Below, piece by piece: positions 40,950 to 41,774 of a stretch of 64,000 nucleotides of DNA. Position 1 is the first letter of the stretch. Each line of letters begins with the position of its first letter. The stretch lies in the NCBI RefSeq assembly GCF_009914755.1, contig NC_060928.1; one strand, written 5' to 3'. The stretch comes from the human T2T-CHM13v2.0 reference genome, Homo sapiens. A model generated the notes under the pieces. It saw only the letters and a program-made list of their open reading frames with translations. It ran no database searches and was not told the DNA's origin. The position numbers were made by a program, and so were the translations under genes.

Positions 40950-41129
40950 GAATAAAACTTAAACTAACCAGTTTTCTCAAGCCCTTTTATAAGGGTTCTG
41001 ATCCTCTTCATCAGGACAGAACCCTCATGGCCTAATCGCCTCCTAAAGATCTCACCTTTTAATACTGTTACATTGGGTTTAAGTTTCAACATGAATTTTG
41101 GACATGACACAAACATTTAAGCCATAGCA
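40950..41129 (-). mobile_element. MLT1A/MST-type MaLR LTR, 5' half (inverted)
   Basis: Minus strand reads TGCTATGGCTTAAATGTTTGTG..CCAAAATTCATGTTGAAACTTAAACCCAATG..CCCTTATAAAAAGGG. Confidence 0.88.
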
Positions 41130-41252
41130 GTGTTTAAAATAGGTTATATTATCATATGTTTAAATGTAAATTGGCATGACCTAGTAGTAGAGAGGAAGAC
41201 ATTTACCCACTTGAACATACTGTAGGCTAAATGCATATTAAGATTTCATGCA

Positions 41253-41545
41253 GGCCAGGCACGGTGGCTCATGCCTGTTATCCCAGCACTTTGGGAGGCC
41301 AAGGTGGGTGGATCATGAGGTCAGGAGATTGAGACCAGCCTGGTCAATATGGTGAAACCCAGTCTCTAGTAAAATACCAAAAATTAGTCAGGCATGATGG
41401 TGTGTATCTGTAGTCCTAGCTACTCAGGAGGCTGAGGCAGGGGAATCGCTTGGACCTGGGAGGCAGAGGTTGCAGTGAACAGAGATTGTGCCACTGCACT
41501 CCAACCTGGCAACAGAGCAAGACTATCTAAAAAAAAAAAAAAAAA
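41253..41545 (+). mobile_element. AluS (Sc/Sg-like) with TSD
   Basis: TSD AAGATTTCA(T/G)GCA on both sides. Confidence 0.95.
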
Positions 41546-41574
41546 GATTTCAGGCATAGGTATATTTTGAAATG

Positions 41575-41774
41575 AGTTTAAGTTTTATTCTGCCATGTGA
41601 GGATGCAGAAACAATGCACCATCTTGGAAGAAGAGAGCAGTCCTCACTAGACATTGAATCTGCTGGTGCCTTGCTCTTGGACTTCCCAGCCCCCAGAACT
41701 GTGAGGAATAAATTTCTGCTTTTTATAAACTACCCACTTAAAGATTATTATATCGCCAGAAACAGACTAAGACA
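41575..41774 (+). mobile_element. MLT1A/MST-type MaLR LTR, 3' half
   Basis: CTGCCATGTGAGGA..GGACTTCCCAGCCCCCAGAACTGTGAGGAATAAATTTCTG..GACTAAGACA. Confidence 0.9.

What the first reader, a model, noticed from the sequence alone, without database searches (positions are those of the whole stretch)
40950..41590. ~640-bp micro-inversion that split one MaLR LTR, with an exact 16-bp inverted repeat at its breakpoints
Seen: the 5' half of an MLT1A/MST-type LTR lies on the minus strand (41129 to 40950) and the 3' half on the plus strand (41575-41774). GAATAAAACTTAAACT (40950-40965) is the exact reverse complement of AGTTTAAGTTTTATTC (41575-41590). Flipping 40950-41590 yields one contiguous ~364-bp LTR (TGCTATGG...GACTAAGACA) flanked by AACAC and AACAT. 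Known: MaLR LTRs make 5-bp TSDs, and inverted duplications at breakpoints are a signature of staggered-break or template-switch inversions. Inference: the LTR fixes the ancestral orientation. The perfect repeat in an otherwise diverged LTR suggests the inversion is much younger than the element. The enclosed AluS may have been flipped with it.
Basis: partly seen in the sequence, partly recalled or inferred. Interest (0 to 1): 0.75.

Follow-up and report, generated by a model that had tools for sequence, protein, structure and literature searches.

The report
Old solo LTR split by inversion
An ancient retrovirus-like repeat (a MaLR solo LTR) in a PCDH7 intron was cut in two by a small inversion of about 625 bases that left a perfect 16-base inverted copy at its two ends; this is a tidy example of an ordinary kind of rearrangement.

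Summary
The exact 16-nt inverted repeat is at 40950-40965 / 41575-41590. It is the only spaced exact inverted repeat of 16 nt or more in the window outside Alu and low-complexity sequence. The 16-mer occurs 9 times in the 3.1-Gb genome.

Window 40950-41129 (-) and 41575-41774 (+) each match thousands of dispersed copies. In 23 of 23 fetched copies the two halves lie on one strand in the order 5' then 3'. Homology stops at the outer LTR ends and never passes the repeat arms.

The flanks are single copy and carry a 4-of-5 target duplication, AACAC/AACAT. This is one solo ERVL-MaLR LTR of MST/MLT1A grade, roughly 60-100 My old. The subfamily could not be named here.

It was split by a non-homologous inversion, most likely after a 16-nt staggered break. 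The perfect arms show the inversion is younger than the LTR, at most about half its age. "Much younger" is not shown.

A pre-existing 16-nt repeat that caused the inversion cannot be excluded without an un-inverted allele. No primate or population data were available. The finding is ordinary and of low interest.

The parts
40950..40965 (-). Left arm of the exact 16-nt inverted repeat. It is the inner end of the LTR 5' half and borders single-copy DNA on its left.
   Evidence: I4; I6.
40950..41129 (-). 5' half of the solo MaLR LTR (180 nt, including the left arm). It begins with TG at 41129 on the minus strand.
   Evidence: 2380 first-look candidates, 40 scored, the 39 non-self at 77-82% identity; homology to 23 copies starts at 41127-41132 in 18 of 23 and never goes left of 40963.
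41130..41134 (-). Five bases next to the LTR 5' end. They read AACAC on the LTR's strand and are one copy of the target-site duplication.
   Evidence: Read. They pair with AACAT at 41775-41779 (4 of 5).
41130..41239 (.). Single-copy spacer that lies next to the LTR 5' end, inside the inverted stretch.
   Evidence: window 41130-41245 matches only itself in the genome at E up to 10.
41240..41556 (+). Alu (41253 to its poly-A, ending about 41543) with its own 13-nt target duplication: AAGATTTCATGCA at 41240-41252 and AAGATTTCAGGCA at 41544-41556. It lies wholly inside the inverted stretch.
   Evidence: D11, 12 of 13. (masked 41246-41555). (2 CpG left in the Alu body, counted by eye).
41557..41574 (.). 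An 18-nt non-repeat spacer between the Alu's duplication and the right arm. Its right edge is the right junction.
   Evidence: no copy's homology to the 3' half starts left of 41583.
41575..41590 (+). Right arm of the exact 16-nt inverted repeat. It is the inner end of the LTR 3' half.
   Evidence: 15 of 23 copies begin to align inside it (41583-41589).
41575..41774 (+). 3' half of the solo MaLR LTR (200 nt, including the right arm). It ends in CA at 41774.
   Evidence: 4292 first-look candidates, 40 scored, the 39 non-self at 78-88% identity; homology ends at 41770-41779 in 16 of 23 copies, exactly at 41774 in 8.
41775..41779 (+). AACAT, the second copy of the target-site duplication. Single-copy DNA follows it.
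   Evidence: window 41775-42200 matches only itself.
40436..40731 (-). Neighbouring Alu on the opposite strand. It forms a head-to-head inverted pair with the enclosed Alu. It is not at a junction.
   Evidence: I1-I3; I1: 60-nt arms, 83%, 522 nt apart.

Best explanation
A single solo LTR of the ERVL-MaLR superfamily inserted on the plus strand into single-copy intronic DNA of PCDH7 and made a 5-base target duplication. The LTR is about 364 nt if the 16-mer is counted once.

Long afterwards the chromosome broke at two places a few hundred bases apart. One break lay in unique DNA upstream of the LTR. The other lay in the LTR's variable centre, where the two strands were cut 16 nt apart. The single-stranded 16-nt ends were filled in, and the stretch between the breaks was rejoined in the opposite direction by end joining with no or almost no microhomology.

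The result is the present order: unique DNA, then the 16-mer and the 5' half on the minus strand, then the former upstream flank (now holding an Alu), then the 16-mer and the 3' half on the plus strand.

Shown:
- One LTR is split into two halves of opposite orientation.
- The halves overlap by an identical 16-mer.
- The LTR is a solo LTR with a target duplication.

Inferred:
- The break geometry and the fill-in.
- The timing.
- That the event is neutral, since it is deep in an intron with no exon in the window.
For: 1. Both halves belong to one LTR type. In 22 of 22 copies, and 23 of 23 with L025, the halves lie on the same strand in 5'-then-3' order. Only in the window are they on opposite strands.
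2. With queries extended 60 nt past every end, homology stops at the LTR's outer ends: 41127-41132 in 18 of 23 copies and 41770-41779 in 16 of 23. At the inner ends it never passes the arms: no 5'-half alignment goes left of 40963, and no 3'-half alignment starts left of 41583.
3. In alignment A1 the 5' tail runs through the 16-mer, and the 3' head's nt 9-16 fall in the same columns. Short-centre copies L016, L018 and L020 hold one stretch there.
4. The 16-mer is private and rare. There are 9 copies in the genome against 10 for the control, and the 28-mer is unique at up to 3 mismatches. Two independent copies would not share it.
5. The target duplication matches 4 of 5, and all three flanks are single copy.
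6. At the junctions I read 0 nt (left) and at most 1 nt (right) of microhomology, by eye. That fits end joining.
7. The model is in print. Staggered breaks with fill-in and end joining give inversions flanked by inverted duplications, sometimes at one breakpoint only (PMC1885836, passages). About half of 45 studied human polymorphic inversions, which range from 83 bp upwards, are non-homologous (PMC6748972, passages).
Against: - No un-inverted allele or orthologue could be seen. The ancestral order is therefore inferred from the LTR alone, and the origin of the left arm (made in the event or already there) is untested.
- The family's centre varies in length. By my hand sums, the spacing between aligned blocks is within -15 to +9 nt of the single-count expectation in 7 copies, but 23 to 67 nt longer in 14 of the 21 usable copies. 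Length alone therefore does not prove a single count, and a small loss of centre sequence cannot be excluded.
- The best relatives of the 5' half are mostly long-centre copies.
- The two top-40 hit lists share only one locus.
- The polarity of the overhang, and so the ease of fill-in, is unknown.
- Read-level support for the assembly at this site was not available.
Confidence: 0.7

Rival explanations
1. The 16-nt inverted repeat existed before the event. A chance match to the LTR's centre lay a few hundred bases upstream, and pairing of the two arms in single-stranded DNA (during replication or at a resected break) caused the stretch between them to be inverted. The arms would then be the cause, not the scar.
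For: - All 59 human-chimpanzee microinversions in PMC8755829 are flanked by inverted repeats of 3-75 nt (abstract; section 6).
- Folded as single-stranded DNA, 40930-41610 pairs the two arms in both the minimum-energy and the centroid structure.
- The product would be identical to what is seen.
Against: - The 16-mer has a genome frequency of about 9 per 6.2e9 strand positions. It would have to lie by chance within 1 kb of its complement; my hand estimate is about 3e-6 per site.
- The left flank plus arm is single copy, so no older repeat explains the arm.
- The published cases invert 17-33 nt, not about 300-625 nt.
- The arms are 13 of 16 A/T.
Confidence: 0.14
2. The inversion and its 16-nt inverted duplication arose in one replication error. 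The nascent strand switched to the opposite template, copied the stretch backwards to 16 nt beyond where it had left, and switched back.
For: - The four-point template-switch model produces reverse-complement segments and perfect inverted repeats in great-ape genomes (PMC7954356, passages).
- Small insertions or deletions at human non-homologous inversions have been ascribed to FoSTeS/MMBIR (PMC6748972).
Against: - The copied fragments in the great-ape set have a median of 12 nt and a maximum of 128 nt. Here the fragment would be 625 nt, or about 321 nt without the Alu.
- Neither junction shows microhomology to prime a switch: 0 and at most 1 nt, read by eye.
Confidence: 0.1
3. Two unrelated, truncated MaLR LTR copies happen to lie 445 nt apart on opposite strands, and no inversion occurred. 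A variant of this idea is that the LTR carried a private tandem 16-nt repeat and a blunt break fell exactly between the two copies.
For: - MaLR LTRs are very abundant.
- The two top-40 hit lists share only one locus.
- Some family members carry internal duplications in the centre (L011 and L019).
Against: - The halves are exactly complementary in coverage and share an identical 16-mer in the most variable part of the LTR. The halves are only 62-88% identical to other copies, and the 28-mer is unique.
- The outer ends carry a matching 4-of-5 duplication.
- The tandem-repeat variant needs a break at one particular position out of about 364.
Confidence: 0.02
4. The arrangement is an assembly error, or a variant private to the sequenced genome, rather than the common human state.
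For: Nothing seen here speaks for it.
Against: A 641-nt structure is far shorter than the long reads used for such assemblies, and a 16-nt repeat is too short to confuse them. This rests on inference and general knowledge, not on a call.
Confidence: 0.04

Closest known systems
Non-homologous inversions with inverted duplications at the breakpoints (staggered-break model; Ranz et al. 2007, PMC1885836)
   Same: The inverted segment is flanked by an inverted duplication of sequence that is single copy before the event. [quoted passage not shown] No long repeats lie at the breakpoints (passages).
   Different: The Drosophila duplications run from 46 bp to about 1.9 kb (median 321 bp), and those inversions are chromosomal in scale. 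Here the duplication is 16 nt and the inversion about 625 nt.
Human polymorphic inversions made by non-homologous mechanisms (Giner-Delgado et al. 2019, PMC6748972)
   Same: They are small (from 83 bp), have breakpoints without inverted repeats, arise once, and often carry small sequence gains or losses at the junctions (passages).
   Different: It is not known whether this one is polymorphic. I saw no listing of this site.
Inverted-repeat-flanked microinversions between human and chimpanzee (Potapova et al. 2022, PMC8755829)
   Same: Perfect or near-perfect inverted repeats sit at the edges of the inverted stretch.
   Different: Those events invert 17-33 nt, and the repeats are regarded as pre-existing. 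Here the stretch is 20 to 35 times longer, and one arm is LTR sequence that intact copies carry once.
Genomic inversions at L1 ORF2p-made breaks (bioRxiv 10.1101/2024.12.14.628481)
   Same: They are small inversions of flanking DNA (for example 917 bp) that keep a TSD-like overlap of 4-15 bp between breakpoints (passages). Sixteen nt lies in the size range of L1/Alu target duplications, and the Alu here has 13 nt.
   Different: The reported cases carry a poly-A insertion at a junction. Here neither junction has an insertion, and the Alu has its own separate duplication.
Alu- or L1-recombination-mediated inversions (Lee et al. 2008, PMC2603318; search listing and start of abstract only)
   Same: An inverted Alu pair is present at the locus (I1).
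   Different: The junctions lie outside both Alus, and the enclosed Alu keeps an intact 12-of-13 target duplication. No Alu-Alu exchange took place.

Membership tests
ERVL-MaLR LTR (solo LTR) | Homology over the whole LTR to a large dispersed family with defined ends | tested here: met
Searches gave 2380 and 4292 first-look candidates, 40 scored each; the ends of homology cluster at 41127-41132 (18 of 23 copies) and 41770-41779 (16 of 23). No tool here names repeats.
ERVL-MaLR LTR (solo LTR) | TG...CA termini and a 5-bp target-site duplication | tested here: met
   From, the LTR starts with TG (minus strand at 41129-41128) and ends with CA (41773-41774). The flanking pentamers are AACAC and AACAT (4 of 5). 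My hand estimate of the chance of at least 4 of 5 is about 1.6% for equal base use.
ERVL-MaLR LTR (solo LTR) | Solo state: both LTR ends border host DNA, with no internal region | tested here: met
   The DNA next to both LTR ends (41130-41245 and 41775-42200), and the DNA left of the left arm, are single copy in the genome.
MST versus MLT1A subfamily | Best match to one subfamily model of a curated repeat library (Dfam/Repbase) | not testable with these tools
   No repeat library is at hand. Smit 1993 (PMC309426) is not held. PMC10735291 gives the succession and ages of subfamilies but no diagnostic sequence in its main text; its supplementary figures are closed. Naming does not need inner genes. 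It needs a library.
Non-homologous inversion with breakpoint duplication | A marker that is contiguous elsewhere is split into two parts of opposite orientation | tested here: met
   the halves are collinear on one strand in 23 of 23 copies, and on opposite strands in the window.
Non-homologous inversion with breakpoint duplication | The duplicated stretch was single copy before the event | tested here: inconclusive
   Short-centre copies hold one stretch where both halves map. The centre varies in length across the family, and no un-inverted allele of this locus was available.
Non-homologous inversion with breakpoint duplication | The un-inverted arrangement is present in an outgroup or in other chromosomes | not testable with these tools
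Repeat-mediated (NAHR) inversion between inverted Alus | Junctions lie inside the two repeats, giving chimeric repeats without their own target duplications | tested here: not met
   The junctions are at 40949/40950 and 41574/41575, outside the Alus at about 40436-40731 and 41253-41543. The enclosed Alu keeps its 13-nt duplication at 12 of 13.
TPRT-associated inversion (twin priming or ORF2p-break remodelling) | A poly-A insertion at a junction, with the overlap flanking insertion plus inversion | tested here: not met
   No inserted bases lie at either junction. The only poly-A element has a separate duplication. The bases at the edge of the 16-mer match the recalled L1 nick motif in 3 of 6 positions.

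The most novel reading that the evidence does not exclude
The 16-nt stagger is the footprint of an L1 ORF2p-type double nick that was resolved without any insertion. This would be a germline micro-inversion driven by the retrotransposon endonuclease alone, fixed or segregating in a PCDH7 intron. The reading rests on three things: the size of the overlap, which is in the range of L1/Alu target duplications (the Alu 20 nt away has 13 nt); the report that TSD-like overlaps are specific to ORF2p-made breaks and persist in inversions; and the A/T-rich site.
Probability: 0.06. Interest if true: 0.55.

Novelty: new member of a known kind. Interest (0 to 1): 0.25.

Why it matters
The locus is a clean natural example of how a split repeat polarises a small inversion with no outgroup. 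The LTR fixes the original order, its target duplication fixes the element's ends, and the 16-nt inverted copy records the geometry of one break to the base.

Such cases are useful as test cases for inversion callers and repeat annotators. The public soft mask here covers only the Alus and not the LTR halves. They also help in cataloguing how often human non-homologous inversions carry breakpoint duplications.

The locus has no evident bearing on PCDH7 function, because no exon lies in the window. It reveals nothing new about the LTR family.

Tried and rejected
1. A second split repeat as independent proof. The left flank plus arm (40732-40965), the spacer (41130-41245) and the right flank (41775-42200) match only themselves in the genome. 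No second marker exists. The search may miss very old repeats.

2. Spacing between aligned blocks as a test of counting the 16-mer once or twice. The family has short-centre and long-centre copies, so length alone does not decide (hand sums).

3. Subfamily naming from print. PMC10735291 gives the order and ages of subfamilies but no usable diagnostic letters. Smit 1993 is not held.

4. A published inversion at this site. One search searched PCDH7, inversion, intron and structural variant. It found 4,155 papers with 3 of the 4 terms. I saw only the 10 listed, and none concerns this site, so this is a weak negative. Supplementary tables of inversion catalogues are closed.

5. Alu-Alu exchange, twin priming, retroviral autointegration (5-bp stagger, viral DNA only; recalled) and DNA-transposon alternative transposition (other duplication sizes; recalled) were considered and rejected on junction positions and on the Alu's own duplication.

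6. A window-wide count of inverted repeats against Markov shuffles by script gave no output. replace it.

7. The Rfam scan of the window found nothing.

8. A consensus, profile or joined LTR was not built. The 'conserved' line printed was not used.

Ages are my hand calculations:
- Identity of the half not used to pick the copies averages 72.5% (3' half in L002-L012) and 70.1% (5' half in L014-L024).
- That gives about 0.36 substitutions per site between copies (Jukes-Cantor, gaps counted), or about 0.18 per lineage.
- With a recalled neutral rate of about 2.2e-9 per site per year this is about 80 My. The honest range is 60-100 My or wider.
- For 32 arm bases without change, e^(-32d) = 0.05 at d = 0.094.

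Full report
**What is there**

One search gives the sequence of 40700-42000. One search finds, among 8 inverted pairs in 40500-42200, one exact pair: GAATAAAACTTAAACT at 40950-40965 and AGTTTAAGTTTTATTC at 41575-41590. The arms match 16 of 16, with 609 nt between them.

- The repeat stops dead on all four sides; I compared the bases next to the arms by eye and they do not match.
- In the whole 64-kb window, with seed 14 and arms at most 1 kb apart, 24 inverted pairs are listed. This is the only spaced exact pair of 16 nt or more that is not Alu-Alu, poly-A/T or a short palindrome.
- With up to 2 mismatches the 16-mer matches only its two arms in the window. The expected count was 0.27, and 3 of 100 shuffles reached 2.
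- In the 3.1-Gb genome it occurs exactly 9 times, against 10 for the reversed control pattern.
- A second, inverted copy within 1 kb by chance is therefore of the order of 3e-6 (hand estimate).

**The two stretches are halves of one LTR type**

- Window 40950-41129 read on the minus strand finds 2380 first-look candidates in the genome. Forty were scored, and the 39 other than the window's own place were 77-82% identical.
- Window 41575-41774 on the plus strand finds 4292 candidates. Forty were scored, and the 39 others were 78-88% identical.
- I fetched 11 non-self loci from each list, plus the one locus that appears in both lists (L025).
- In 22 of 22, and 23 of 23 with L025, both halves match the same strand in the order 5' half then 3' half. 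Only in the window do they lie on opposite strands.

With queries lengthened by 60 nt beyond every end:

- Homology begins at 41127-41132 in 18 of 23 copies. The other 5 run 6 to 40 nt further at low identity.
- Homology ends at 41770-41779 in 16 of 23 copies, exactly at 41774 in 8. Five alignments stop early (41724-41738) and two run on (41783, 41802).
- At the inner ends no alignment of the 5' half passes 40963, and none of the 3' half starts before 41583, although 60 nt more were offered on each side.
- Fifteen of 23 alignments of the 3' half begin inside the right arm. Four of 23 alignments of the 5' half end inside the left arm.

**The 16-mer is LTR sequence that intact copies carry once**

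In alignment A1 the tail of the 5' half runs through the 16-mer. Its last 8 nt share columns with nt 9-16 of the head of the 3' half. In those columns the short-centre copies L016, L020 and L018 hold a single related stretch that leads straight into the conserved block beginning TGCCATGT.

The centre of this family varies in length. By my hand sums, the spacing between the aligned blocks is within -15 to +9 nt of the single-count expectation in 7 of 21 usable copies, and 23 to 67 nt longer in 14. L007 has a large insertion and L021 aligns only in part, so both were dropped.

Length alone therefore does not settle the count. What settles it is that the two halves carry the same private letters at the place where they would meet. 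The 28-mer formed by the right arm and the start of the 3' half is unique in the genome even at 3 mismatches, whereas the halves are only 62-88% identical to other copies.

I did not re-orient or join the halves. They were compared apart throughout.

**It is a solo LTR with a target duplication**

- The LTR starts with TG and ends with CA.
- The five bases outside its 5' end read AACAC on its strand (41130-41134), and the five outside its 3' end read AACAT (41775-41779). Both are read.
- The DNA next to both ends, and the DNA left of the left arm, match nothing else in the genome.
- No second split repeat is available as independent proof, and nothing suggests that the left arm belongs to an older repeat.

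**Order of events that fits**

Only one single inversion brings the two halves into the collinear order seen in all 23 relatives: an inversion of the stretch bounded by the arms.

- That stretch is 625 nt with one arm, and 641 nt over both arms.
- It contains the 5' half, 110 nt of former upstream flank, an Alu and 18 nt more.
- The Alu (41253 to about 41543, plus strand) has its own 13-nt duplication, matching 12 of 13, wholly inside the stretch (D11). It is therefore a separate, ordinary insertion.
- Without the Alu and one copy of its duplication the stretch would be about 321 nt.
- The junctions lie outside both Alus, so an Alu-Alu exchange is excluded, although the locus now holds a head-to-head Alu pair 522 nt apart (I1).
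- At the left junction I see no microhomology, and at the right junction at most one base (by eye).

**Mechanism**

The product is what the staggered-break model predicts. Two nicks on opposite strands give a break with single-stranded ends. Fill-in and end joining in the inverted order leave an inverted duplication of the stretch between the nicks, sometimes at one breakpoint only (PMC1885836, passages). Blunt junctions fit end joining. I rate this reading at about 0.70.

A replication template switch would give the same product. It is less likely, at about 0.10, for two reasons. No microhomology is present. And the copied fragments in great apes have a median of 12 nt and a maximum of 128 nt (PMC7954356, passages).

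The main rival is that the 16-nt repeat was there first and caused the inversion, as argued for 59 human-chimpanzee microinversions of 17-33 nt that are all flanked by inverted repeats (PMC8755829, abstract and section 6). Single-stranded DNA of the region does pair the arms. Against it stand the rarity of the 16-mer, the much longer spacer and the A/T-rich arms. I rate it at about 0.14. Only an un-inverted allele or orthologue can decide.

Two independent fragments, or a private tandem repeat broken exactly between its copies, need coincidences (0.02). An assembly error or a private variant could not be tested (0.04).

**Family and age**

The element is an LTR of the ERVL-MaLR superfamily.

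- Copies picked by one half are 72.5% and 70.1% identical in the other half (hand means).
- That is about 0.18 substitutions per site per lineage, or roughly 80 My at a recalled 2.2e-9 per site per year. The honest range is 60-100 My or more.
- This is the grade of the MST to MLT1A subfamilies.
- According to PMC10735291 (passages and section 10), MSTB, MSTA and THE1 are simian-specific (within 70 My). MSTD, MSTC, MSTB2 and MSTA1 predate the split of Haplorhini and Strepsirrhini. MLT1A1 is confined to Euarchontoglires. MLT1A and MLT1A0 are eutherian-wide.
- The subfamily needs a repeat library, not inner genes. I could not name it.

**Age of the inversion**

- The arms hold 32 bases without a change. 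If the inversion were as old as the LTR, the chance of that would be about e^(-5.8), or 0.003.
- The 95% bound is 0.094 substitutions per site, about half the LTR's age.
- The half-chance point is 0.022, about one eighth of the LTR's age.
- 'Younger' is therefore supported, and 'much younger' is possible but not shown.
- If the Alu is of the usual AluS age (label recalled; 2 CpG left; AluSc is put at about 45 My), it was more likely than not already present and carried along. This is inference only.

**Comparison and verdict**

This is a small non-homologous inversion with a breakpoint duplication, a known kind in flies and in humans. Among 45 studied human polymorphic inversions, with sizes from 83 bp, about half are non-homologous, and 18 of those carry small gains or losses (PMC6748972).

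I found no paper on this site (listing only). Supplementary tables that might list it are closed.

The boldest reading that remains open is an insertion-free break by the L1 endonuclease. The overlap has the size of an L1/Alu target duplication, and a preprint reports such overlaps at ORF2p-made inversions. But those carry an insertion, and the edge motif here matches in only 3 of 6 positions. I give it 0.06.

The finding is real and neatly read by the first stage. It is ordinary in kind and probably neutral.

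Noticed in passing
window 52116-52201: An A/T-rich near-perfect palindrome: 41-nt arms, 95% complementary, with only 4 nt between them (I2; sequence). Its origin was not examined. It could be a template-switch product or a hairpin-forming site.
   Followed up: partly
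window 47529-47612: A perfect tandem duplication of a 40-nt unit: 2.1 copies, 100% match, no indels. It looks young.
   Followed up: no
window 55746-55857: A tandem duplication of a 55-nt unit: 2.0 copies, 94% match.
   Followed up: no
window 40762-40777 and 42027-42042: A second 16-nt inverted pair, matching 15 of 16 and 1249 nt apart, nested outside the finding's pair (I5). The right arm lies among local direct repeats (D3, D12). My rough estimate puts a chance match at several per cent, so it is probably chance.
   Followed up: partly
window 40436-40731 (-) and 41253-41543 (+): A head-to-head inverted Alu pair about 520 nt apart (I1: 60-nt arms, 83%). If the enclosed Alu predates the inversion, the inversion created this inverted pair.
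   Followed up: partly
window 40938-40943 and 41568-41573: The hexamer TGAAAT lies 6 nt left of the left junction and 1 nt left of the right junction. In the un-inverted order these would be inverted 6-mers a few bases apart around the upstream break. This was noticed after the fact and is of low weight.
   Followed up: no
window 40950-41129 and 41575-41774: The public soft mask (stretches of 100 nt or more) covers only the Alus in 39000-44000 and not the LTR halves. Mask-based scans would therefore miss this element.
   Followed up: no
window 39000-40250: A strong purine excess on the plus strand: GC skew 0.31-0.52 and AT skew 0.13-0.22. The cause was not examined.
   Followed up: no
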